Assembly (NCBI GenBank): GCA_022828085.1
Contig: JAJEIY010000001.1
Location: forward strand, 35,180-99,179
Reading direction: 5' to 3'
Source: Acidobacteriota bacterium
GTDB lineage: Bacteria; Acidobacteriota; Vicinamibacteria; Marinacidobacterales; Marinacidobacteraceae
DNA length: 64,000 nt
Shown here: positions 54,893 to 64,000 of the stretch, piece after piece
How positions within the stretch are numbered: the first letter of the stretch is position 1
How the letters are laid out: each line of letters begins with the position of its first letter
Translations under genes and position numbers: made by a program
The notes under the pieces: model-generated
Seen by the model: only the letters and a program-made list of their open reading frames with translations
Database searches by the model: none
Told to the model about the DNA's origin: nothing

Positions 54893-56452
54893 CTACCGAT
54901 CCTCGTCCGAAATCCGTGACTGCCAGCGCTCGATCTGCCGGGCCGCGGCGTCCCGGCCGCCGAGGCCGAAGGCCACCGCGAACGCCACCGCCACCGCGCC
55001 CAGCACGATGCCGAAGGCCAGCTCGATGATCTCGTTGGCAATGCCCATCTGGCGGAGGCCCACCGCGGTCGTGAACAGCAGGATGCCGACCCGCGCCGCC
55101 AGCGCGAGCAGCCGCGCCTGCGGGACCCGGCTGGCGCTGATGGCGCGCGCCGACAGGTTCGCGAGGAAGACCCCGAAGCCCAGGAACACCACCCCCAGCA
55201 GGAACTGGCCGGTGAACTGGAGGAGCCGGGTGAGCAGCCCCGCCGCGTTGTCGAACCCCACCAGGCTCGCCGCCTCGATGCTCGCGAACAGCATGATGAG
55301 CGCGAGCACCACCACCCGCACGACGTTCGAGGCCGTGTGGTCGTCGGCCGTCGCGGTGCTGGTCAGCCCGATCCGGGTCAGGACGTGGTCGAAGCCGGCC
55401 TGCCGGAGGAGGTCGCAGGTCAGGTTCGCGATGACGCGTCCCACCACGTAGGCGGTGAGCAGGAGCGCCACCGCGACCAGCAGGAGCGGCAACGCGCTGA
55501 AGACCCGCCCGAGCATGTCGCTCGCCGGCCGCGTGATCACGTCGAGGCTCAGCCGGTCGAGCCCGGTCAGGATCACCGGGAAGAGCACCAGCAGGTAGGT
55601 GATCCCGCCGAGCAGCGCCGACGGGGTCCGCGAACCCAGGATCCGCCGGAGCCCGAGCCGCTCCGTCGCCCGGTCGAGCCCCACCGCGGCGAGCAGGTTC
55701 GTGACGACCGCCTTCGCGATCCGGGCAATGAACCACCCGACCAGGAAGATGATGATGGCGCCGAGCGCGTTCGGCAGGAAGGTGATGACCTGATTCACGA
55801 CCGTCTCGATCGGGAGCAGCACCCCCTCCAGGTCGAGCGCCGCCAGGATAGGCGGCAGGAACAGGAGGAGGACGACCCAGTAGACGATCTCGGGCACCGC
55901 GTGCGAGACCCGGCCCGGCGGCCGCTCGCTCCCCCGGTCGAGCCGCTCGTCCACGCCGGCCGCCTCGAGGGCGACCCGCACCGCGCGGCGGAGCACGGCG
56001 GCGAGGACCCAGGCCGCAAGGAGCAGCACGAGCGCCCGCCCCAACTGGGCGACCATCCCCATGATGCGGCCCAGCAGGGTCCCGCCGATGCCTCCGATCG
56101 CGGAGACGTCCACGACCGACGCGACCGCGGCCACGACCAGGATCAGGAGCCCCCAGAAGACGATCCGGCCCGCGATCGCCTCGACGTCCTGCTGGGAGGC
56201 CCGTTCGGGCCCGAGCGCCAGCCGGACGCCGCCGGCGACCCGGGAGGCGATCCGCTCGCGAAGACCCAGCCGGAAAAGGGCCCGGCGGAGCAGGATGACC
56301 ACCACCAGCGCGAAACCGAAAGCGGCCACCAGGACGCCCAGCGCGATCACCAGGTGACCCACGGTCGTGTCGAAGATCGGGGGCATCCGGCGCAGCAGGT
56401 CCGACAGGGCTTCGAGCATTTGCGGGATGGTAGTGAATCCGTCGTCCGCCAT
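54893..56452 (-). CDS. Polytopic membrane protein with conserved TM-helix repeats (MscS-like N-terminal region; no MscS beta-domain seen)
   Basis: The 519-aa protein has repeated hydrophobic helix pairs. No catalytic motif was recognised. Confidence 0.45.
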   Translation of the reverse strand: MADDGFTTIPQMLEALSDLLRRMPPIFDTTVGHLVIALGVLVAAFGFALVVVILLRRALFRLGLRERIASRVAGGVRLALGPERASQQDVEAIAGRIVFWGLLILVVAAVASVVDVSAIGGIGGTLLGRIMGMVAQLGRALVLLLAAWVLAAVLRRAVRVALEAAGVDERLDRGSERPPGRVSHAVPEIVYWVVLLLFLPPILAALDLEGVLLPIETVVNQVITFLPNALGAIIIFLVGWFIARIAKAVVTNLLAAVGLDRATERLGLRRILGSRTPSALLGGITYLLVLFPVILTGLDRLSLDVITRPASDMLGRVFSALPLLLVAVALLLTAYVVGRVIANLTCDLLRQAGFDHVLTRIGLTSTATADDHTASNVVRVVVLALIMLFASIEAASLVGFDNAAGLLTRLLQFTGQFLLGVVFLGFGVFLANLSARAISASRVPQARLLALAARVGILLFTTAVGLRQMGIANEIIELAFGIVLGAVAVAFAVAFGLGGRDAAARQIERWQSRISDEDR

Positions 56453-56583
56453 CCGGCGGCGGGCCCAAAGAAAGGCTGCCGGACCGGCGGCTACCCCCGA
56501 TCCCGGTGGTAAATTCCGCCGAATTCAGGGCCCCGCCCGCCGATTCCGGTCTGGATTCCGGGTTCCCTCAAAGGAGTTGAATC

Positions 56584-57888
56584 ATGCGGCGCAGGCGGTT
56601 TCTGAGTTCGGTGGGCGAAGCCGGCGGCGCCGCGCTCGTCACCACCCTGTTCGGCCCGGAAACGATCCGGAACGTCGAGGCCGCGGCGCAGCGGACCGCG
56701 GGAACAAGCCCGGAAGACCTCGCGCGCGACGAGAACTACTGGAGCGAGATCCAGCAGGCGTTCAGCGTCACGCGTTCGATCATCAACCTGAACAACGGTG
56801 GGGTCTGCCCCTCACCCCGCATGGTCACCGAGGCGTTCGTCCGCTACATCTGGGAATCGGAGGAGGCCCCCGTCTACACGATGTGGCAGATCCTCCAGCC
56901 CCGGAAGGAAAACGTCCGCCAGCGGCTCGCGGTGCTGTTCGGATGCGACCCCGAGGAGGTCGCGCTCGTCCGCAACACCTCGGAAGCCATGGAGATCCTG
57001 CTGCTGGGCATGGATCTCCAGTCCGGCGACGAGATCCTCACCACCACCCAGGACTACGGTCGGATGCTCACCACCATCCGCCAGCGGACGCGCCGCGAGG
57101 GCATCGATCTCAAGTTCATCCAGATCCCGACCCCGGCCGAGACCGACGAGGAGGTCGTGGAGGGGTTCCGCGGCGCCATCACCGACAAGACCCGGATCAT
57201 CCTGATGTCCCACCAGATCAACCTCACCGGGCAGATCCTGCCGGTGAAGGCGGTCTGCGACCTGGCCCGCGAACGCGGCATCGAGGTCATGGTGGACGGG
57301 GCGCACTCGTTCGCCCAGTTCGACTTCAAGCTCGAAGACATCGGCTGCGACTACTTCGGCACCAGCCTTCACAAGTGGCTCCTCGCCCCCAAGGGCACCG
57401 GGATGCTCTACGTGAAGAAGGACAAGATCCCGAAGATCTGGCCCATGATGCCCGCCCCCGAGCGCATGGACGAGGACATCCGCAAGTACGAGGAGATCGG
57501 CACCCATCCCGCCGCCAACTTCGTGGCGGTCGGAGAAGCGATCACCTTCCACAACACGGTGGGCGCGAAGAACAAGGAGGCCCGGCTCCGCTATCTGAAG
57601 GACACCTGGGCCGATCGCCTGTCAGCACTCCCCAATACCGAACTCCACACTTCGCGCAACCCCAGGTTGAGCTGCGCCATCGGCAACATCAACCTGACGA
57701 CCGTCGAACCGCCCCGGCTCCGCGACTACTTCTGGGAGAAGCACCACATCATCGTCACTCCCATCATGCACGAGGAGTTCCAGGGACTCCGGATCACTCC
57801 GAACCTCTACACGACCATGGCCGAGCTCGACTACTTCTGCAACGTGTACGAGGACATCGCGCGGAACGGCCTTCCCAAGTCGGCCTGA
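56584..57888 (+). CDS. Class V aminotransferase / cysteine-desulfurase-like PLP enzyme with twin-arginine signal
   Basis: MRRRRFLSSVGEAGGAALVTTLFGP is a Tat signal. The PLP-lysine motif is SLHKWLLAPKGTG, and the protein is 434 aa. A strong RBS AAAGGAG lies 8 nt upstream. Confidence 0.8.
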   Translation: MRRRRFLSSVGEAGGAALVTTLFGPETIRNVEAAAQRTAGTSPEDLARDENYWSEIQQAFSVTRSIINLNNGGVCPSPRMVTEAFVRYIWESEEAPVYTMWQILQPRKENVRQRLAVLFGCDPEEVALVRNTSEAMEILLLGMDLQSGDEILTTTQDYGRMLTTIRQRTRREGIDLKFIQIPTPAETDEEVVEGFRGAITDKTRIILMSHQINLTGQILPVKAVCDLARERGIEVMVDGAHSFAQFDFKLEDIGCDYFGTSLHKWLLAPKGTGMLYVKKDKIPKIWPMMPAPERMDEDIRKYEEIGTHPAANFVAVGEAITFHNTVGAKNKEARLRYLKDTWADRLSALPNTELHTSRNPRLSCAIGNINLTTVEPPRLRDYFWEKHHIIVTPIMHEEFQGLRITPNLYTTMAELDYFCNVYEDIARNGLPKSA

Positions 57889-57943
57889 TTCTCATGAACG
57901 TCGGTCCCGGTCCGGCGCGCGGCACGCCGGTGCGGCTGTTCTC

Positions 57944-59446
57944 ATGACCCACACCGCCGTGCATCCCGGCGCCGCTCCCGCGTTCCGCCAGTACGACCAC
58001 AACCCGACGTTCTACGACGAGATGTTCGAAGGCGACGGGTCTCCGCGCCAGCACTGCTCCGATTTCTTCGAGACCATCCGGGAGACGCCGCCGGATGACC
58101 TGCGGCAGATTCAGGAGCGGGTCACGCGGTCGTTCCTTCACGAGGGGATCACCTTCACCGTCTACGGCGACGAACAGACCATCGAGCGCGTCTTCCCGAT
58201 CGACTGCCTCCCCCGGATCGTGCGCGGAGACGAATGGGACGACGTCGCCCGCGGGCTGGAACAGCGGCTCCGGGCGCTCAACCTGTTCCTCCACGACATC
58301 TACCACCGGGGCCACATCATCCGCGACGGGGTGATCCCCGCCGAACTGGTCTACGGCAACAAGCACTACCGGATCGAGATGCGGGGCGTCGAGGTCCCCC
58401 ACGGCGCCTACGTCTCGGTCTGCGGCACCGACCTCGTGCGCACCCACGACGGGTTCGCGGTGCTCGAGGACAACCTCCGGGTGCCGTCCGGCGTCAGCTA
58501 CATGCTCGCCTGCCGGGATGCGATCAAGCGCAGCATGCCGCGCCTGTTCCGGCGTTCCCGGGTCCGGGACGTGGAGCAGTACAGCCGGCTGCTGCTCGAG
58601 ACGCTCCGGTCGCTCGCGCCGCCGCAGGTGAGCGATCCGAGCATCGTCCTGCTCACCCCCGGCGTCTACAACTCGGCCTACTACGAGCACGCCTTCCTCG
58701 CCCGCCAGATGGGCATCGAACTCGTCGAGGGACGCGACCTGCTCGTCCACAACCGGCGGGTGTACATGCGGACGACCGCCGGGCTCCGGCAGGTGGACGT
58801 GATCTACCGGCGCATCGACGACGACTTCATCGACCCGGTCACGTTCCGCGAGGACTCGGTGCTCGGAGTGCCCGGGCTCTTCCACGCGTACCGGGCGGGC
58901 CGGGTGGTGATCGCGAACGCCCCCGGGACCGGCGTGGCCGACGACAAGGCCGTCTATGCCTACGTGCCGCGCATCATCAAGTACTACCTGGGCGAGGAAT
59001 CGCTCATCAAGCCCATTCCAACCACTCTTTGCCGGGAGCGGGAGGGCCTTGCCTACACCCTCGCCAATCTGGACAAGCTGGTCGTGAAGATGGTGGGTGA
59101 GTCCGGCGGCTACGGGATGCTGGTCGGTCCTCACGCCTCGGCAACCGAACAAAAGGAGTTCGCGGCGGCGCTCCGGGCGAACCCGGACGACTACATCTCC
59201 CAGCCGACGCTCGCCCTGTCCCGGGCCCCCTGCCTTATCGGGGCCCATATCGAGCCGCGGCACGTGGACCTGCGGCCGTTCATCCTGCAGTCGGAACGGA
59301 CCGAGATCGTGCCCGGCGGCCTCTGCCGGGTCGCGCTCAAGAAGGGCAGCCTGGTGGTGAATTCCAGCCAGGGCGGCGGCTCCAAGGACGCCTGGATCGT
59401 GGATGTTCCGGAGGCGGCCGGGCCTGCTGCCGCCGCAAGCGCCTGA
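57944..59446 (+). CDS. Circularly permuted ATP-grasp type 2 protein (DUF404/DUF407)
   Basis: The 500-aa protein has conserved blocks (VIANAPGTGVADDKAVYAYVP, SGGYGMLVGPHA) characteristic of the cp-ATP-grasp family. It is the first gene of the cpATP-grasp / alpha-E / transglutaminase triad. Confidence 0.85.
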   Translation: MTHTAVHPGAAPAFRQYDHNPTFYDEMFEGDGSPRQHCSDFFETIRETPPDDLRQIQERVTRSFLHEGITFTVYGDEQTIERVFPIDCLPRIVRGDEWDDVARGLEQRLRALNLFLHDIYHRGHIIRDGVIPAELVYGNKHYRIEMRGVEVPHGAYVSVCGTDLVRTHDGFAVLEDNLRVPSGVSYMLACRDAIKRSMPRLFRRSRVRDVEQYSRLLLETLRSLAPPQVSDPSIVLLTPGVYNSAYYEHAFLARQMGIELVEGRDLLVHNRRVYMRTTAGLRQVDVIYRRIDDDFIDPVTFREDSVLGVPGLFHAYRAGRVVIANAPGTGVADDKAVYAYVPRIIKYYLGEESLIKPIPTTLCREREGLAYTLANLDKLVVKMVGESGGYGMLVGPHASATEQKEFAAALRANPDDYISQPTLALSRAPCLIGAHIEPRHVDLRPFILQSERTEIVPGGLCRVALKKGSLVVNSSQGGGSKDAWIVDVPEAAGPAAAASA

Positions 59447-59448
59447 TC

Positions 59449-60423
59449 ATGCTCGCGCGCGTCGCCGACAACCTCTACTGGATGAGCCGGTACCTGGAGC
59501 GGTCGGACCAGACGATCCGTCTCCTGGGGGTCCAGGTGCGCTCGGTGACCGACAACACCTCCGCCCAGGTGGCTGCCGGCTGGACCCGGCTCTTCCGCAG
59601 CCTGAAGGTGGCGCCTCCCGGGGGCGACCCGCTCTACGGCGATCAGCTCGAGGACTCGTTCCTGCTCGCCGACGCCTACACGCTCGCGGACTTCATGAGT
59701 TTCGAGCGCGACAACCCCGGCTCGATGGTGTCCCTGTGGGGCATGTCGCGGGAGAACGCCCGGCAGGCGCGGCAGGAAATCACCCAGGAGATGTGGGGTC
59801 AGCTCAACCGAACCTACCTCTCGCTCCGCGACACGCAACTGCACTTCTTCTGGAACAAGGAACCCGAGAACTTCTACAAGGAGACATCCGCGCAGATCTA
59901 CCTCTTCCGGGGAGTGACCGACAACGGCCTGCGGCACGGACTTGCCTGGGACTTCATCCGGCTCGGGCGGTTCATGGAGCGCATCCAGGTGACCACCGAG
60001 ATTCTCGACAACTACCGCCCGGCCCTCGACGACGAGGACACCGACCTGGACTGGTCGCTCCTGCTCCGCAACTGCGCCAGTTTCGAGCCCTACTGCCGCC
60101 ACTACACGCCCGAAATCGATCCCTGGAAGGTGATGACCTTCCTGATCCACGAACCGGAGTCACCCCACACCCTCCGCTTCGCCGCCGAGGAGATCAGAAA
60201 CGGCCTGGGACGCATCGATCCCGCCGGCGGCGCCCGCCACCCCCTGCAGGCCGCGCACCGGATCGCCGGGCAGCTTCGGGCGCTGCTCGTCTACGGATCC
60301 CAGGACCGGGAGGACCTTGCGGGCACGCTTGCCGAGGTGCGCCGGCTCTCCCGCGGGCTCCACGACGAGATCTACCGCCGCTACATCTTCTATCCCGCGG
60401 ACCAGGCCCTGCCGGGAAGATAA
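59449..60423 (+). CDS. Alpha-E domain protein (DUF403)
   Basis: The 324-aa protein has the characteristic start MLARVADNLYWMSRYLERSDQTIRLL. Its start lies 3 bp after the ATP-grasp stop. Confidence 0.85.
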   Translation: MLARVADNLYWMSRYLERSDQTIRLLGVQVRSVTDNTSAQVAAGWTRLFRSLKVAPPGGDPLYGDQLEDSFLLADAYTLADFMSFERDNPGSMVSLWGMSRENARQARQEITQEMWGQLNRTYLSLRDTQLHFFWNKEPENFYKETSAQIYLFRGVTDNGLRHGLAWDFIRLGRFMERIQVTTEILDNYRPALDDEDTDLDWSLLLRNCASFEPYCRHYTPEIDPWKVMTFLIHEPESPHTLRFAAEEIRNGLGRIDPAGGARHPLQAAHRIAGQLRALLVYGSQDREDLAGTLAEVRRLSRGLHDEIYRRYIFYPADQALPGR

Positions 60424-60443
60424 GGGCCCGCGCGACCAGCCAC

Positions 60444-61364
60444 GTGACCTCCGAAGACACCCTCTACCGCATCGAACACGTGACCCGGTTCCGGTATTCG
60501 GAACCGATCCGGGAAGCCGTCGTCACGCTCTACCTCGAGCCCCGCAGCGACGCTTCCCAGCATCTCAGGTCCTTCCAGATCCTCACGGATCCCGGCGCCG
60601 AACTCGGCAGCTACGAGGACTGCTTCGGAAACGCGGTGCACTTCTTCGACGTGCCCGGCGAGCACGAACAACTGACGGTCACCTCCCGGTCCCTCGTTGC
60701 CCTCCACGCCAGCGATCCCGATGAAGCCAGGGGATCGGCCTGGGACGATCTGCAGGAACTGCGGACCCCTTCGACGTGGCATCTGCTCCACCCCACCCCG
60801 CTGACCCGGCCGACCGCCGCGCTGGACGCCTTCGTCGCCCGGCACGGGATCGAGCGCGGCGAAACGCCGCTGGCGTCCGTTCGCGAACTGACTTCCCGCA
60901 TTCACGAAGCGCTCGACTTCGAGCGGGGACGAACGCGGGTGGACTCACCGATCGACGATGCCCTGGCGGCGGAAAGCGGGGTCTGTCAGGACTTCTCCCA
61001 CATCATGCTCGCCATCGTGCGGGGCTGGGGGATCCCCGCTCAATACGTCTCGGGGTACCTCTTCCCGGTTCACAAGGGACGGGAGCAGGCCATGGCGCAG
61101 GCCAGCCACGCCTGGATCGAGTGCCTCCTCCCGGGCCTCGGCTGGGTGGGCGCCGACCCCACCAACAACACGGTTTCTCCGAGACATCACGTCCGGGTCG
61201 CGAGCGGGCGGGACTATCGTGACGTTCCACCCACCCGCGGCACCTTTCGGGGATCCGCTCAGCAGGAGCTGGAGGTCGGCGTCAAGATTTCGATGGTGGA
61301 TCCGGAACCCTCGGGCGGTCCCGCGCCCCCCGCAGACGTGCAATCCCCAACCCGCGGGCGGTGA
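60444..61364 (+). CDS. Transglutaminase-like family protein (N-terminal transglutaminase-N domain plus cysteine-protease core)
   Basis: The protein starts at GTG (VTSEDTLYRIEHVTRFRYSEP). The catalytic Cys motif GVCQDFSH and downstream His/Asp residues give about 306 aa. The long upstream track extension is junk. Confidence 0.8.
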   Translation: MTSEDTLYRIEHVTRFRYSEPIREAVVTLYLEPRSDASQHLRSFQILTDPGAELGSYEDCFGNAVHFFDVPGEHEQLTVTSRSLVALHASDPDEARGSAWDDLQELRTPSTWHLLHPTPLTRPTAALDAFVARHGIERGETPLASVRELTSRIHEALDFERGRTRVDSPIDDALAAESGVCQDFSHIMLAIVRGWGIPAQYVSGYLFPVHKGREQAMAQASHAWIECLLPGLGWVGADPTNNTVSPRHHVRVASGRDYRDVPPTRGTFRGSAQQELEVGVKISMVDPEPSGGPAPPADVQSPTRGR

Positions 61365-61440
61365 CGGACCGCGGAGGAACCCGCCTTTGTGTGTTGCGAT
61401 TCGCCCGGAAAACGCCGAGTATTCCTCTGTCGCGCGGCGC

Positions 61441-61474
61441 GTCCGCCGGGTTTCTGACCGGTTTCCCGGCGGAC
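61441..61474. promoter_or_regulatory. Perfect 10-bp inverted repeat GTCCGCCGGG-N14-CCCGGCGGAC upstream of the rsbW-like gene
   Basis: The repeat lies 40 bp upstream of the 61512 start, has no U-run, and a TTGACG hexamer lies just downstream. Confidence 0.35.
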
Positions 61475-61511
61475 GTGGGTTCCACCACAGGCTGCTAAAG
61501 TTGACGCCCCG

Positions 61512-61988
61512 ATGGCACCGAGGCGCGGCCCAGCCGGTAAGTCGAAGGCTCCCGCCTTCTCCTGCAAGCTGGACAAGAACCTGGGCGAACTCAGCGAGAT
61601 GCTCGTGGCGCTCGAGGAGTTCGCAGAGAAACATGGCGTGTCGCCGCTCCAGAGCCAGCGAATCACGCTCTCGGTGGACGAACTGGTCACCAACATCATC
61701 AAGTATGGAACCCAGGCACTCGAACACACCCACATCCACTTGTGGGCCACGATCGTGGACGGGACGTTTCACATCGAAATCGAGGATCACGGGATACCAT
61801 TCGACCCGTTTCACGAGGCGCCGGTCCCCGACACGACCCTTCCCCTCGAGGAGAGGCCGATCGGAGGGCTTGGTGTTTTTCTCGTTCAGTCCCTCATGAC
61901 CACGACCAATTACGAACGAATCAAGGATCGAAACCGGATCACCCTGACCCGGTCGCTAACAGCCGGCGACCAGGAGGAAACTCAATGA
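61512..61988 (+). CDS. Anti-sigma regulatory factor, RsbW/SpoIIAB-like Ser/Thr kinase (HATPase_c)
   Basis: The 158-aa protein has HATPase_c G-boxes (IEDHGIPFDP, GGLGVFLVQSLM). Confidence 0.75.
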   Translation: MAPRRGPAGKSKAPAFSCKLDKNLGELSEMLVALEEFAEKHGVSPLQSQRITLSVDELVTNIIKYGTQALEHTHIHLWATIVDGTFHIEIEDHGIPFDPFHEAPVPDTTLPLEERPIGGLGVFLVQSLMTTTNYERIKDRNRITLTRSLTAGDQEETQ

Positions 61989-62323
61989 ACCTGACGGATG
62001 AAACGAAGAACGGAGTTCTCGTGCTGTCGCCCCAGGGGCGCATCGACACCCGCACGAGCAGCGAGTTCGAGCAGGCGGTGATGGCGCACGCCATCGGGCC
62101 GGAAGGCGCGACCCAGGTGGTGATGAATTTCGGCGGGCTGGACTACATCAACTCGACGGGGATGCGCGTCCTGCTGATCCTCGCCAAGCGGCTGGCCGGC
62201 GTGAAGGGCAAGCTGGTGCTCTGCGAGATGAAGGAGCACATTCTCGAAGTCTTCAAGATCAGCGGCTTCAACCAGATCCTGACGATCACCGACACCGAAG
62301 CCGACGCTCTCGAGCGCTTCTAG
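61985..62323 (+). CDS. STAS-domain anti-sigma factor antagonist (RsbV/SpoIIAA-like)
   Basis: The 112-aa protein has the conserved phospho-acceptor region DYINSTGMRVLL. An ATGA overlap joins it to the upstream kinase gene. Confidence 0.8.
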   Translation: MNLTDETKNGVLVLSPQGRIDTRTSSEFEQAVMAHAIGPEGATQVVMNFGGLDYINSTGMRVLLILAKRLAGVKGKLVLCEMKEHILEVFKISGFNQILTITDTEADALERF

Positions 62324-62480
62324 CACCGCGCGTCAGTCCCGGGCGGGCTGACCGGCGGGTGCCAAGACCGCGCTTCGCCGGGTCCCGGGACCAAGATGAC
62401 ACGGGAGCGTGACACGCCTGACAACGGCCGGGAACGCCCGCCAGTGGCTGTGAAGATGCCGTCCCGCGGGTCGGCCAAGA

Positions 62481-62563
62481 GCCGTGATGGCGCCGCCGGC
62501 TTGGAACGCCGGTCTCCGACCGGCACGCGCGGTGCTCCGCACCGCGCACGTCGTGGCGTCGAC
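62481..62563 (+). repeat. Intergenic repeat element copy B
   Basis: The copy reads GCCGTGATGGCGCCGCCGGCTTGGAACGCCGGTCTCCGACCGGCACGCGCGGTGCTCCGCACCGCGCACGTCGTGGCGTCGACC. Hairpin 1 lies at 62508-62524 and hairpin 2 at 62527-62547 (GCGCGGTG/CACCGCGC). Confidence 0.75.
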
Positions 62564-62751
62564 CTGCTGGATGGTTGCTCGCTAGTGCCCGCAACTGAGC
62601 AGACCGGAGGTTCCCGGATCTCTGGCGCCCGTGGACTGGCCCACGGCGAAGCGCCGTCGGCGTCCGACGGCCCGGGCGTCCGTCGCCCGGACGCCAGCAC
62701 ACCTATACTCCGGCGGCTGGTCCCACCGCACGCCTCAAGACGTGGATTCCG

Positions 62752-63546
62752 ATGGCTGACATCCCCTGGCGCATCATCAGCGGCGACGGTCCGCTGGTAG
62801 CCACCGCGATCCACCACGGACACGACGTCCGTCCGGAAATCCGGGAACGAATGGCGCTCCCCGAACACAAGCGACTCAACGAGGAGGACCCCTTCACCGG
62901 CCCGTTCACCGCCGTTGCGCCCACCCGGATTGTCGTGGAGCGCTCGCGTTTCGAGGTGGACCTCAACCGTCCGCGCGAAAACGCCGTCTACCGCCGCCCC
63001 GAGGACGCCTGGGGCCTCCGCGTTTGGCGGGACGAACTCCCGGATGACGTCTGCGCCCGATCGCTGGCCATCCACGACGCGTTCTATGCAACGCTTCGGG
63101 GAATCCTCGAGGAGAAGGAACGACGCTACGGCGCCTTCGTGGTGTTCGACCTCCACAGCTACAACCACCGCCGCGACGGTCCGGACGCTCCCGCGCAGGA
63201 TCCCGCCGCGAACCCGGAGGTCAACCTGGGGACCGGGTCCATGGACCGGCACCGCTGGGGAGCCCTCGCCGACCGGTTCATGGAGGACCTGCGGTCCTTC
63301 GACTTCGGAGGGCGCCACCTCGACGTCCGGGAAAACGTCCGGTTCCGCGGCGCTCAGCTCTGCCGCTTCGTCCACACCAACTTCGCCGAGAGCGGCTGCG
63401 GGCTCGCGATCGAGTTCAAGAAGTTCTTTATGGACGAATGGACCGGCGAGACCCATCCGGGAATCCACGGGCGGATTCCGCAGGCGCTGCGCGCCACCGT
63501 CCCGGGGATCCTCGAAGAGTTGGAGAAGGTGCGCGCCGGGCGCTGA
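62752..63546 (+). CDS. N-formylglutamate amidohydrolase family protein
   Basis: The 264-aa protein has FGase-family blocks (FVVFDLHSY, CGLAIEFKK). Confidence 0.7.
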   Translation: MADIPWRIISGDGPLVATAIHHGHDVRPEIRERMALPEHKRLNEEDPFTGPFTAVAPTRIVVERSRFEVDLNRPRENAVYRRPEDAWGLRVWRDELPDDVCARSLAIHDAFYATLRGILEEKERRYGAFVVFDLHSYNHRRDGPDAPAQDPAANPEVNLGTGSMDRHRWGALADRFMEDLRSFDFGGRHLDVRENVRFRGAQLCRFVHTNFAESGCGLAIEFKKFFMDEWTGETHPGIHGRIPQALRATVPGILEELEKVRAGR

Positions 63547-63570
63547 GATGGCGCCGCAACCGCGCTGCCG

Positions 63571-64000
63571 GTGATACCCGCCCGCTTTCTGCGCTCGGCC
63601 GCCGGGCGGCTGGCCGCGGACCAACCCCTCCGGCGCCAGCTTCCGGACTGGGGCCGGGTCCACATCGACCGGCAGCTCCCCTTTGTCTGCGTGTACCGGC
63701 GTCCGCGGAGGGCGCCGGACGGCCTCACCGGGCGGCTGATCACCACGCAGGCGTCGTACGTGGTCGGCGCCGAGGACGAAATCGCCCCCTTGGTACGAAC
63801 CGTCGCGACCACCCTCTCGCCGGTTTTCGGCGGGTTTCTGGTTCTCGAAGTCTGGGAGACGCCCATCCGGGAACTGCCGGGAGAACCCGGCGCCGTCGCT
63901 CCGGGTTTCCGGATCCTCGCCCCGCGCGGGGAGGGCCTCTCCTCCACAGTCCAGGCGCTGGCCGCCGGGCTGACGGGAGTCCGCGTCTACAAGCATCCCG
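63571..64000 (+). CDS. Hypothetical protein, 5' fragment running off the window; possibly DUF1704 / QEGLA-motif family
   Basis: An open frame from a GTG translates as VIPARFLRSAAGRLAADQPLRRQLPDWGRVHIDRQLPFVCVYRRP... with no stop before the window end. The family assignment rests on recollection of N-terminal blocks only. Confidence 0.3.
   Translation, partial: MIPARFLRSAAGRLAADQPLRRQLPDWGRVHIDRQLPFVCVYRRPRRAPDGLTGRLITTQASYVVGAEDEIAPLVRTVATTLSPVFGGFLVLEVWETPIRELPGEPGAVAPGFRILAPRGEGLSSTVQALAAGLTGVRVYKHP

What the first reader, a model, noticed from the sequence alone, without database searches (positions are those of the whole stretch)
56584..64000. cpATP-grasp / alpha-E / transglutaminase triad embedded between a Tat-exported PLP aminotransferase and a partner-switching pair, with a second amidoligase-type pair at the window edge
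The genes at 57944-61364 form the conserved triad of circularly permuted ATP-grasp, alpha-E (DUF403) and transglutaminase-like protein. Comparative genomics (established knowledge: Iyer and Aravind-type analyses) predicts this to be a peptide-ligation or tagging system, but it has no experimental characterisation. Here it is preceded by a Tat-signal class V aminotransferase, which has an RBS, then a 55-bp gap. It is followed by an RsbW-like kinase and STAS antagonist. Next comes an N-formylglutamate-amidohydrolase-like gene and a 5' fragment of a DUF1704/QEGLA-like gene. FGase-like proteins belong to the M14/AstE-AspA-like hydrolase fold, which also recurs in ATP-grasp amidoligase neighbourhoods. 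A second RimK-like ATP-grasp may therefore lie just beyond the window.
Basis: partly seen in the sequence, partly recalled or inferred. Interest (0 to 1): 0.72.

Follow-up and report, generated by a model that had tools for sequence, protein, structure and literature searches.

The report
Two unrelated peptide-ligase gene cassettes, side by side

Summary
Every gene call was confirmed on the + strand: a Tat-signal PvdN-like PLP enzyme, circularly permuted ATP-grasp, Alpha-E, transglutaminase-like protein, an RsbW-like kinase and STAS protein, an FGase, and the start of a DUF1704/QEGLA (now Pfam 'MATCAP') gene. A 100%-identical contig extends the window. The last ORF is a 627-aa MATCAP-family protein, followed by a 348-aa GshB/RimK-type ATP-grasp, as predicted. 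No 7TM transglutaminase follows.

The implied functional unity is not supported.
- In 80 loci anchored on the ATP-grasp, Alpha-E and the transglutaminase almost always follow.
- The PLP enzyme is adjacent only in close relatives that share the whole local synteny (2 of 73).
- The FGase cassette is never nearby (0 of 63).
- FGase–MATCAP–GshB-like is a separate conserved cassette, usually beside mechanosensitive-channel and ion-transport genes. Here it arrived with such genes as a lineage-specific insertion.

Only the kinase/STAS pair recurs next to ATP-grasp/Alpha-E in other phyla. There it is part of a larger binding-protein/sensor-kinase/phosphatase module, often with an ammonium transporter. 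This fits published nitrogen-limitation induction of the triad.

One extra result: the in-window fragment of the last gene is an FGase-fold domain, not the DUF1704 domain.

Verdict: a new member of known kinds, of moderate to low interest.

The parts
56453..56583 (.). 131-bp divergent intergenic region between the MS-channel gene (54893-56452, minus strand) and the PLP enzyme. AAGGAG Shine-Dalgarno at 56571-56576.
   Evidence: Sequence. No sigma-70-like or sigma-54-like match.
56584..57888 (+). Class V PLP-dependent enzyme, PvdN-like, with a twin-arginine signal (MRRRRFLS...) and PLP lysine in SLHK (K264). Predicted periplasmic.
   Evidence: Aminotran_5 E 3.6e-39. Best NCBIfam hit is PvdN, 150.5 bits against a cut-off of 650. 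Best PDB hits are PvdN 5i90 and 5hh9, E about 1e-30. Motifs.
57944..59446 (+). Circularly permuted ATP-grasp (DUF404/DUF407 type), the presumed amide-bond ligase of the triad.
   Evidence: CP_ATPgrasp_2 E 4.9e-161. PDB 3n6x, E 1.7e-163. 58-65% identical to homologues in 78 loci from many phyla.
59449..60423 (+). Alpha-E (DUF403) all-helical protein. Starts 2 bp after the ATP-grasp stop.
60444..61364 (+). Transglutaminase-like cysteine protease/transamidase (Bact_transglu_N + Transglut_core). GTG start. Cys181/His222/Asp238 intact.
   Evidence: Pfam. Catalytic motifs GVCQDF, HAW, DPT.
61365..61511 (.). 147-bp spacer with an 11-nt perfect inverted repeat (61440-61450 / 61465-61475). The spacer is only 3-13 bp in the relatives L176 and L007.
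   Evidence: The repeat arms are not conserved in L003, so no function is claimed.
61512..61988 (+). RsbW-like serine kinase (HATPase_c_2). N-box and G-boxes present.
   Evidence: HATPase_c_2 E 1.1e-22. RsbW and SpoIIAB models score far below their cut-offs. Invariant E57, N61, D92, G94 and G118-G121 in alignment A1.
61985..62323 (+). STAS-domain anti-anti-sigma-type antagonist. Overlaps the kinase gene by 4 bp.
   Evidence: STAS E 7.5e-18. TIGR00377 77.2 bits against a cut-off of 53.45.
62324..62751 (.). 428-bp non-coding spacer: the junction between the triad array and the inserted FGase block. Weak sigma-54-like element CGGCAC-N5-GGTGC at 62521-62535.
   Evidence: No coding signal. No Rfam hit. 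The motif is conserved in L001 and L003 but is not above chance.
62752..63546 (+). N-formylglutamate-amidohydrolase-family (FGase) protein, first gene of the second cassette.
   Evidence: FGase E 1e-21. The HutG equivalog model scores only 19.4 bits. Precedes MATCAP in the window lineage and in 4 of the 5 other contexts sampled.
63571..64000 (+). First 143 codons (GTG start) of a 627-aa long-form QEGLA/MATCAP (DUF1704) protein. This part is an FGase-fold N-terminal domain. The metallopeptidase domain (HEVGTH at 438-443, QEGFA at 469-473) and a 348-aa GshB/RimK-type ATP-grasp lie beyond the window, at about 64.3-65.45 kb and 65451-66497 in window numbering.

Best explanation
The region holds two independent, already-catalogued but experimentally uncharacterised amide-ligase cassettes. 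They are adjacent only in this lineage of marine Vicinamibacteria (Acidobacteriota).

Cassette A, 56584-62323. Its core is the cpATP-grasp / Alpha-E / transglutaminase-like triad.
- Inferred from family chemistry: the ATP-grasp activates a carboxylate as an acyl-phosphate and ligates an amine or amino acid. Alpha-E, the fastest-diverging partner, acts as the specificity or regulatory subunit. The Cys-His-Asp transglutaminase-like protein hydrolyses or transfers the amide product.
- From literature and gene context: the system belongs to the nitrogen-limitation response.
- Inferred: the RsbW-like kinase and STAS pair immediately downstream is a partner-switching regulator of the triad. It looks like a reduced version of a larger module (periplasmic binding protein, HAMP sensor kinase, response-regulator PP2C phosphatase, RsbW-like kinase, STAS) that flanks cpATP-grasp/Alpha-E in other phyla.
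- The upstream Tat-exported PvdN-like PLP enzyme is most likely a syntenic passenger, possibly co-transcribed, and not a conserved component.

Cassette B, 62752 to about 66497, running off the window. It comprises FGase, a protein with an FGase-like N-domain fused to a MATCAP-type HExxxH metallocarboxypeptidase, and a GshB-paralogous ATP-grasp.
- Inferred: this is a ligase/hydrolase cycle acting on a glutamate-containing peptide or a protein C-terminal tail. It is analogous to RimK, or to the TTL/MATCAP cycle on tubulin.
- From gene context and one transcriptome: it is linked to osmotic or ion homeostasis, not to cassette A.
For: Gene identities.

Organism and synteny
- The closest ATP-grasp loci are Ca. 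Marinacidobacterium (89%) and a Vicinamibacteria MAG (85%).

The triad is the conserved unit
- Alpha-E follows the ATP-grasp in 74 of 75 loci with room, and the transglutaminase in 71 of 73.
- Outside the clade, median identity is ATP-grasp 62%, transglutaminase 44% and Alpha-E 34%. Alpha-E drops from at least 61% inside the clade to at most 42% outside it.

A and B are independent
- The B cassette is in 0 of 63 triad loci.
- Five MATCAP contexts from other taxa all have MATCAP followed by the 348-aa ligase, with overlapping or abutting genes. Four have FGase upstream and none has a triad.
- L176 and L007 go from STAS straight to the CSD/ABC_ATPase genes. In the window lineage the same genes lie beyond an inserted block of FGase, MATCAP, ligase, CNNM, MgtE and an MS channel.

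The PLP enzyme is a passenger.

The kinase/STAS pair
- It is contiguous with the triad genes on the same strand in the window clade (gap 3-147 bp), in L009 (Gammaproteobacteria), and in L030 and L051 (Dehalococcoidia).
- It lies within 3-9 kb in three Longimicrobiales loci and in L119. In all of these (L009, L030, L051, the Longimicrobiales loci and L119) Response_reg-SpoIIE, Peripla_BP_6 and HAMP-HisKA genes are also present.
- An ammonium transporter is adjacent in L014, L019, L021, L026, L029, L030 and L119.

Nitrogen link in the literature
- The B. cenocepacia DUF404/407-DUF403-transglutaminase cluster is 6- to 9.4-fold NtrC-dependent under nitrogen limitation (PMC5491218).
- Anbu is up in nitrogen-limited P. 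putida (PMC5666114).

Cassette B chemistry
- The ligase is nearest E. coli GshB (1gsa, E 8.6e-37) and then RimK.

Osmotic or ion link
- MS-channel genes lie within 10 kb in 5 of 6 contexts. CorA, MgtE, CNNM, TrkA_C, CLC, Na/Ca-exchanger or trehalose genes also occur.
- The adjacent 'GshB' and QEGLA genes of Photobacterium damselae are induced 38- and 27.5-fold at low salinity (PMC10308900).
Against: - No biochemical function is known for either cassette. Every mechanistic step is inferred from family chemistry.
- The pair-triad link is not reciprocal. Of 80 loci anchored on relatives of the kinase (a capped sample), only L087 (same lineage) and L119 carry triad genes. Most are generic RR-PP2C/kinase/STAS modules.
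- By similarity, the window's kinase does not cluster with most triad-linked kinases. L009 ranks 3rd, L119 17th, and the rest rank near the bottom of 88.
- Partner-switching genes are common in these phyla. A STAS and a SpoIIE gene sit by chance about 7 kb from the MATCAP cassette in L167.
- The close relative L008 has the triad without the pair.
- The window has no PP2C phosphatase, binding protein, sensor kinase or ammonium transporter.
- The PLP enzyme is separated from the ATP-grasp by only 8-55 bp across the clade. Co-transcription, and hence a clade-specific role, cannot be excluded.
- The osmotic link for B rests on six contexts, two of which (L168, L173) are related, and on one transcriptome.
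Confidence: 0.6

Rival explanations
1. One integrated nine-gene pathway. The PLP enzyme, triad, partner-switching pair and FGase/MATCAP/second ATP-grasp would cooperate to build, tailor and recycle a single peptide or peptide tag.
For: All genes are co-directional within 10 kb. Both cassettes combine an ATP-grasp ligase with hydrolases.
Against: - The B cassette is in 0 of 63 triad loci, and 0 of 5 MATCAP contexts have a triad.
- The relatives L007 and L176 lack B at this position.
- A 428-bp non-coding spacer separates the two.
- The PLP enzyme is linked only within one syntenic clade.
Confidence: 0.05
2. In this Vicinamibacteria clade the PvdN-like PLP enzyme is a true member of cassette A. 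The cytoplasmic triad would make a glutamyl- or peptide-type product that is exported and then tailored in the periplasm, as PvdN tailors the glutamate side chain of pyoverdine.
For: - Same strand, with gaps of 8 bp (L176) to 55 bp (window).
- Retained in all clade members examined, while Alpha-E diverges to 63-67%.
- PvdN is the closest characterised relative.
Against: - The unrelated upstream genes FadB, MS channel and Ldh_2 are retained equally in the same clade, so this is general synteny.
- Absent from the other 71 triad loci with room upstream.
- Orthologues at 62-69% identity, including another Vicinamibacteria, sit elsewhere.
- No exporter gene in the array.
- The PvdN equivalog cut-off is missed by a wide margin: 150.5 against 650 bits.
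Confidence: 0.15
3. The RsbW-like kinase and STAS pair is an unrelated neighbour, for example controlling a sigma factor encoded elsewhere. Its proximity to the triad would be coincidence.
For: - The reciprocal search is largely negative.
- The similarity ranking is ambiguous.
- Background density of such genes is high, as the L167 example shows.
- L008 has the triad without the pair.
Against: - Same-strand, contiguous placement next to cpATP-grasp/Alpha-E in three phyla: the window clade (Acidobacteriota), L009 (Gammaproteobacteria), and L030 and L051 (Dehalococcoidia).
- Placement within 3-9 kb in Gemmatimonadota loci.
- The accompanying RR-PP2C and binding-protein genes are 52-60% identical across phyla.
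- Repeated co-location with Amt.
- No sigma-factor gene lies nearby in the clade.
Confidence: 0.3
4. The second ATP-grasp is simply the organism's glutathione synthetase, and FGase and MATCAP are unrelated housekeeping hydrolases.
For: NF009110 'glutathione synthetase' subfamily scores 459.8 bits, above its cut-off of 408. The closest solved structure is E. coli GshB.
Against: - The canonical GshB equivalog models are missed: TIGR01380 182.8 against 299, and NF003573 196.3 against 272.
- The gene overlaps or abuts the MATCAP gene in every context sampled, and FGase is present in 5 of 6.
- L167 has two tandem copies.
Confidence: 0.15

Closest known systems
cpATP-grasp / Alpha-E / transglutaminase system of the 'Anbu operon' (Valas & Bourne 2008; Iyer et al. 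2009, Mol Biosyst 5:1636, as described in PMC5666114)
   Same: Same three families in the same order, with tight spacing. The ATP-grasp is 58-65% identical to homologues across phyla, and the catalytic Cys-His-Asp is intact.
   Different: No Anbu/proteasome-type gene in the array or within about 10 kb (Pfam annotation of L001-L003 and L176). An RsbW-like kinase and STAS pair follows the transglutaminase instead. A PvdN-like gene precedes the array. Alpha-E belongs to a divergent clade.
Burkholderia cenocepacia I35_5080-5083 (DUF404/407, DUF403, two transglutaminase-like proteins), sigma-54/NtrC-dependent under nitrogen limitation (PMC5491218)
   Same: Same core families. Its nitrogen link parallels the Amt and amino-acid-binding-protein sensor genes beside the triad in other phyla.
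   Different: No NtrC or sigma-54 signature was found upstream here. There is no large second transglutaminase protein. Regulation here would be by partner switching, not by an enhancer-binding protein.
RsbW/RsbV and SpoIIAB/SpoIIAA partner-switching modules
   Same: HATPase_c_2 serine-kinase fold with N- and G-boxes. The STAS antagonist passes TIGR00377. The two genes are overlapping.
   Different: Gene order is kinase then antagonist. No sigma factor or PP2C gene is nearby. The RsbW and SpoIIAB equivalog scores are far below their cut-offs. The target is unknown.
PvdN, the periplasmic Tat-exported PLP enzyme that tailors pyoverdine (PDB 5i90, 5hh9)
   Same: Best NCBIfam and PDB match, full-length alignment, twin-arginine signal, PLP lysine.
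   Different: 150.5 bits against a cut-off of 650. No pyoverdine genes. Its orthologues sit in varied contexts.
Bacterial TIGR02421 'QEGLA' / DUF1704 proteins with an adjacent GshB-like ligase (for example Photobacterium damselae A0J47_RS17020/17025), and eukaryotic MATCAP/TMCP tubulin carboxypeptidases working opposite the ATP-grasp ligases TTL/TTLL
   Different: The TIGR02421 cut-off is narrowly missed (309.6 against 338.65). This is a long form with an extra FGase-fold N-domain of about 245 aa. phmmer finds no match to human MATCAP. The substrate is unknown, and bacteria have no tubulin tails.
RimK (ribosomal protein S6 poly-glutamate ligase) and GshB
   Same: The ATP-grasp has GSH-S_N, GSH-S_ATP and RimK domains. 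The nearest structures are 1gsa (GshB), then RimK 4iwx and 5zct.
   Different: It passes neither the RimK nor the canonical GshB equivalog model. It is translationally coupled to a carboxypeptidase.

Membership tests
cpATP-grasp / Alpha-E / transglutaminase triad | CP_ATPgrasp_1/2 domain protein | tested here: met
   536.3 bits against a cut-off of 32. 3n6x E 1.7e-163.
cpATP-grasp / Alpha-E / transglutaminase triad | Alpha-E (PF04168) gene immediately downstream | tested here: met
   231.4 bits against a cut-off of 20.8; 2-bp gap. The same adjacency holds in 74 of 75 loci.
cpATP-grasp / Alpha-E / transglutaminase triad | Bact_transglu_N + Transglut_core protein with the Cys-His-Asp triad | tested here: met
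   C181, H222 and D238.
Anbu operon (full form) | Anbu (proteasome beta-like Ntn hydrolase) gene in the operon | tested here: not met
   No Proteasome-family gene among the called genes from about 52 kb to 74 kb (window numbering) in L001-L003, or in L176. The rest of the genome was not examined.
Peptide-ligation or tagging function of the triad | Demonstrated ATP-dependent amide ligation to a peptide or protein | not testable with these tools
   No experimental paper found.
RsbW/RsbV-type partner switching | HATPase_c_2 kinase plus STAS antagonist encoded together | tested here: met
   4-bp overlap. TIGR00377 77.2 bits against a cut-off of 53.45.
RsbW/RsbV-type partner switching | Cognate sigma factor and PP2C phosphatase | tested here: not met
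   No PP2C in the window by tblastn. No sigma-factor Pfam among the neighbours in L001-L003 and L176. The RsbW equivalog scores 35.7 against a cut-off of 145.
PvdN (NF051467 equivalog) | Score above the curated cut-off | tested here: not met
   150.5 against 650 bits. A homologue, not an orthologue.
Tat-exported protein | Twin-arginine motif followed by a hydrophobic stretch and an AxA-like site | tested here: met
   MRRRRFLSSVGEAGGAALVTTLFG...VEAAAQ, by inspection. No dedicated predictor was run.
MATCAP / DUF1704 (PF08014) | Pfam domain, HExxxH and QEGxA motifs, MATCAP fold | tested here: met
   [not shown]
TIGR02421 QEGLA (hypothetical equivalog) | Score above the curated cut-off | tested here: not met
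   309.6 against 338.65 bits: a narrow miss, for a long-form variant.
RimK-like amidoligase neighbourhood with 7TM inactive transglutaminase | 7TM transglutaminase-like gene next to the ligase | tested here: not met
   Not among the genes in the 10 kb downstream or in five other contexts.
Glutathione synthetase | Canonical GshB equivalog models (TIGR01380, NF003573) | tested here: not met
   182.8 against 299.05 and 196.3 against 272. Only the subfamily model NF009110 is passed, at 459.8 against 408.
N-formylglutamate amidohydrolase HutG (TIGR02017) | Equivalog score | tested here: not met
   19.4 against 278.75 bits. Only the Pfam FGase family is met, at 78.6 against 28.9.

The most novel reading that the evidence does not exclude
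The cpATP-grasp/Alpha-E ligase is an output of a nitrogen- or amino-acid-sensing partner switch.
- In several phyla a periplasmic binding protein and a HAMP kinase would control a response-regulator PP2C phosphatase.
- The phosphatase would set the phosphorylation state of a STAS protein.
- The STAS protein would then free or restrain an RsbW-like kinase that acts directly on the ligase complex, not on a sigma factor.
- The Vicinamibacteria array would be a minimal version of this circuit.

A parallel novel reading concerns the neighbouring cassette. FGase, the fused FGase-like/MATCAP protein and the ATP-grasp could form a salinity-responsive ligase/carboxypeptidase cycle on glutamate-rich peptides or protein tails. 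That would make it a prokaryotic counterpart of the tubulin tail code.
Probability: 0.2. Interest if true: 0.65.

Novelty: new member of a known kind. Interest (0 to 1): 0.33.

Why it matters
The triad is one of the most widespread bacterial gene clusters with a predicted enzymatic function and no known product. The MATCAP/ATP-grasp cassette is the bacterial relative of enzymes that edit tubulin tails.

This locus does not solve either problem, but the analysis does three useful things:
- It removes a tempting false lead, namely that the two cassettes and the PLP enzyme form one pathway.
- It gives two testable regulatory handles: a partner-switching and ammonium-transporter context for the triad, and an osmotic or ion-channel context for the MATCAP cassette.
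- It shows that long-form QEGLA proteins carry a previously unannotated FGase-fold domain.

Tried and rejected
- Rfam scan of 56300-64000 at E up to 1: nothing.
- Sigma-70 promoter and intrinsic-terminator scan: no more than the shuffles give.
- Sigma-54 consensus scan: 23 window matches against 42 expected. One weak + strand site at 62521 lies upstream of FGase and is conserved in L001 and L003, but it is not significant. No site lies upstream of the PLP enzyme, the ATP-grasp or the kinase.
- The 11-nt perfect inverted repeat in the transglutaminase-kinase spacer: its arms are not maintained in L003, and the spacer is absent in L007 and L087. I dropped it as a functional element.
- Orthology of the window kinase with triad-linked kinases by similarity ranking: inconclusive.
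- Alpha-E fold search: only generic helical bundles.
- phmmer of Alpha-E, FGase and the MATCAP-like protein against PDB: no hits.
- Iyer et al. 2009 (PMC3268129) could not be retrieved. Its content is cited only through PMC5666114 or marked as my recollection.
- Looking up a window gene at 46 kb showed only TonB-receptor and TldD/PmbA genes upstream, which are irrelevant here.
- tblastn for PP2C, binding protein, sensor kinase and Amt in the window: none.

Full report
**1. What is in the sequence**

The region has about 65-72% G+C. Mechanical ORF lists are therefore full of spurious overlapping ORFs.

Pfam confirms each gene:
- Aminotran_5, 56584-57888, E 3.6e-39.
- CP_ATPgrasp_2, 57944-59446, E 4.9e-161.
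- Alpha-E, 59449-60423, E 2.4e-68.
- Bact_transglu_N + Transglut_core, 60444-61364 (GTG start).
- HATPase_c_2, 61512-61988, E 1.1e-22.
- STAS, 61985-62323, E 7.5e-18.
- FGase, 62752-63546, E 1e-21.

Gaps between genes are 55, 2, 20 and 147 bp, then a 4-bp overlap, then 428 and 24 bp.

The PLP enzyme has an AAGGAG Shine-Dalgarno seven bases before its ATG, a twin-arginine N-terminus (MRRRRFLS...) and the PLP lysine in SLHK. Its best NCBIfam and PDB relatives are the periplasmic pyoverdine-tailoring enzyme PvdN. It scores far below the equivalog cut-off, at 150.5 against 650 bits.

The transglutaminase-like protein keeps Cys181, His222 and Asp238. The kinase keeps the N- and G-box residues.

Upstream, on the opposite strand, lie an MS-channel gene and a FadB-like gene. 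The array therefore starts at a divergent 131-bp intergenic region.

**2. Beyond the window**

The exact FGase protein occurs on 11 public contigs. L005 is 100% identical to the last 1475 bases of the window. L003 is 97% identical and L001 and L002 are 94% identical.

The truncated last ORF starts at GTG 63571 and encodes a 627-aa protein. PF08014 (MATCAP, formerly DUF1704) covers aa 270-605, and TIGR02421 'QEGLA' covers aa 247-606 at 309.6 bits against a cut-off of 338.65. The protein carries HEVGTH and QEGFA motifs.

A 348-aa GSH-S_N/GSH-S_ATP/RimK ATP-grasp follows with a 4-bp overlap. It passes NF009110 but falls below the canonical GshB models. Convergent CNNM, MgtE and MS-channel genes come next.

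The predicted 7TM inactive transglutaminase is absent. The 143 codons inside the window hit no family model, because they lie upstream of the DUF1704 domain.

**3. Is it one system?**

I anchored a scan of one genome per species on the ATP-grasp. It returned 80 loci at 58-89% identity. The two closest are Ca. Marinacidobacterium and a Vicinamibacteria MAG, which places the window in Acidobacteriota, class Vicinamibacteria.

tblastn with the window proteins gave these counts:

| Feature near the ATP-grasp | Loci with the feature | Loci with room |
|---|---|---|
| Alpha-E following | 74 | 75 |
| Transglutaminase following | 71 | 73 |
| PLP enzyme adjacent | 2 | 73 |
| FGase, MATCAP or second ligase | 0 | 63 |

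The two loci with the PLP enzyme are the two closest relatives. They also retain FadB and the MS channel, so this is general synteny.

Further lines of evidence:
- PLP-enzyme orthologues at 62-69% identity, including another Vicinamibacteria, sit in three unrelated neighbourhoods.
- Long-form MATCAP proteins are widespread at about 50% identity across phyla.
- In five contexts from other taxa, MATCAP is always followed by the 348-aa ligase, with overlapping or abutting genes. Four have FGase upstream, and none has a triad.
- In relative L176 (Alpha-E 67% identical) the array is PLP enzyme, ATP-grasp, Alpha-E, transglutaminase, kinase and STAS, with gaps of 3-15 bp. It runs straight into CSD and ABC_ATPase genes. 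L007 lacks the cassette in the same way.
- In the window lineage those same genes lie beyond an inserted block of FGase, MATCAP, ligase, CNNM, MgtE and an MS channel.

The second cassette is thus a lineage-specific insertion. It travelled with ion-transport genes, not with the triad.

**4. The partner-switching pair**

The kinase and STAS genes recur near the triad in 7 of 80 loci.
- L007, in the same clade.
- L009, a gammaproteobacterium, where they directly follow Alpha-E.
- L030 and L051, Dehalococcoidia.
- L019, L021 and L029, Longimicrobiales.

Outside the clade they belong to a five-gene module: STAS, Response_reg-SpoIIE phosphatase, HATPase_c_2 kinase, Peripla_BP_6 binding protein, and a HAMP-HisKA sensor kinase. 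The phosphatase and binding protein are 52-60% identical across phyla.

L030 reads Amt, STAS, PP2C, kinase, binding protein, sensor kinase, ATP-grasp, Alpha-E, all on one strand. In Longimicrobiales an ammonium transporter sits directly upstream of the ATP-grasp.

The reverse test is weak. Of 80 metagenome loci anchored on kinase relatives (a capped sample), only L087 (same lineage) and L119 carry triad genes, and L119 again has Amt next to them. Amt also lies beside the pair in L088, L122 and L144. The window's kinase is not consistently most similar to the triad-linked ones.

I conclude that the association is real but loose. It is best read as shared nitrogen-status regulation, and the window holds only a minimal kinase/STAS version. 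No PP2C, binding protein, sensor kinase or Amt gene is in the window.

Published transcriptomics agree with a nitrogen link. The Burkholderia cenocepacia DUF404/407-DUF403-transglutaminase cluster is strongly NtrC-dependent under nitrogen limitation (PMC5491218). Anbu is induced in nitrogen-limited Pseudomonas putida (PMC5666114).

**5. How cassette A probably works**

This section is inference. The ATP-grasp is 58-65% identical across phyla and matches the structural-genomics entry 3n6x. Alpha-E and the transglutaminase diverge much faster, with medians of 34% and 44%. This clade's Alpha-E drops from at least 61% inside the clade to at most 42% outside it. That pattern fits a conserved catalytic ligase with a rapidly evolving specificity or regulatory partner.

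The Alpha-E model is confidently all-helical, and its only structural matches are generic four-helix bundles. No Anbu gene is in the neighbourhood.

No paper in the library reports a substrate or product. The Anbu authors state that co-expression with the operon proteins gave no modified form.

**6. How cassette B probably works**

This section is also inference.
- Profile comparison of this N-domain with the cassette's own FGase gives E 2.6e-4. Shared motifs are CVYRRP and AVYRRP, FGGFLVFEVWE and YGAFVVFDLHS, and GC..GLEVRP and GCGLAIEFKK. The FGase 'DLHS' histidine is replaced by a conserved tryptophan, so the domain is probably non-catalytic.

The cassette therefore combines an ATP-grasp ligase nearest GshB and RimK with a MATCAP-type carboxypeptidase and two FGase-fold modules. 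All of these enzyme types act on glutamate-containing amides or on C-terminal residues. The reading as a ligase/hydrolase cycle, analogous to RimK or to TTL/MATCAP, is my inference.

Context points to osmotic or ion homeostasis. MS-channel genes lie within 10 kb in 5 of 6 contexts, with CorA, MgtE, CNNM, TrkA_C, CLC, Na/Ca-exchanger or trehalose genes also present. In Photobacterium damselae the adjacent 'GshB' and QEGLA genes are induced 38- and 27.5-fold at low salinity (PMC10308900).

**7. Verdict**

The integrative interpretation is only partly right.

This is a new member of two known, predicted-only systems that sit next to each other by lineage-specific rearrangement. One possibly meaningful regulatory neighbour, the partner-switching pair, accompanies the triad. 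Interest is moderate to low. The value lies in the regulatory clues and in the newly recognised FGase-fold domain of long-form QEGLA proteins.

Noticed in passing
[not shown]
   Followed up: partly
L001/L003 13766-17993; L167; L168; L169; L173; L174: The FGase-MATCAP-GshB-like cassette repeatedly lies beside mechanosensitive channels and Mg2+/K+/Cl- transport genes (CorA, MgtE, CNNM, TrkA_C, CLC, MgtC, Na/Ca exchanger) or trehalose genes. The Photobacterium damselae counterpart is induced 27- to 38-fold at low salinity.
   Followed up: partly
L030 3245-12394; L051 4091-12487; L009 10001-17966; L019/L021/L029 1100-13300; L119 10001-20430: A conserved five-gene signalling module sits next to cpATP-grasp/Alpha-E in Dehalococcoidia, Longimicrobiales, a gammaproteobacterium and one unassigned metagenome contig (L119). 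It comprises Peripla_BP_6, a HAMP sensor kinase, Response_reg-SpoIIE, an RsbW-like kinase and STAS. An ammonium transporter is adjacent in L030, L119 and the Longimicrobiales loci. In L009, L030 and L051 no transglutaminase follows Alpha-E.
   Followed up: partly
L168 6853-6868; L169 2804-4216; window 62521-62535: L168 has a sigma-54 activator gene and a near-consensus -24/-12 element (TGGCACACTTCTTGCT) just upstream of YtxH and the FGase cassette. L169 has a PAS-sigma-54 activator 3 kb upstream. The window has only a weak, non-significant CGGCAC-N5-GGTGC, conserved in L001 and L003.
   Followed up: partly
window 61440-61475: An 11-nt perfect inverted repeat (CGTCCGCCGGG / CCCGGCGGACG, 14-nt loop) lies in the 147-bp transglutaminase-kinase spacer. 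The spacer is missing in L007, L087 and L176, and the arms are not maintained in L003.
   Followed up: yes
window 59449-60423 compared with L009-L086: Alpha-E (median 34% identity) and the transglutaminase (44%) evolve much faster than the ATP-grasp (62%). This clade's Alpha-E forms a separate group, at least 61% identical within it and at most 42% to everything else.
   Followed up: partly
L167 9908-12135 and 1-1294: One acidobacterial context has two tandem GshB-like ligases after MATCAP. The same locus has unrelated STAS and SpoIIE genes about 7 kb away, which shows how common partner-switching genes are in these genomes.
   Followed up: no
window 62320-63996 (- strand): This 558-aa ORF antisense to FGase and MATCAP is a high-GC artefact. 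Its third-position G+C is lower than that of the + strand frame.
   Followed up: yes
window about 36-46 kb (L175): Upstream region: a TonB-dependent receptor with a CarboxypepD_reg domain, a TldD/PmbA protease pair and a lipocalin-like gene. No apparent link to the finding.
   Followed up: no
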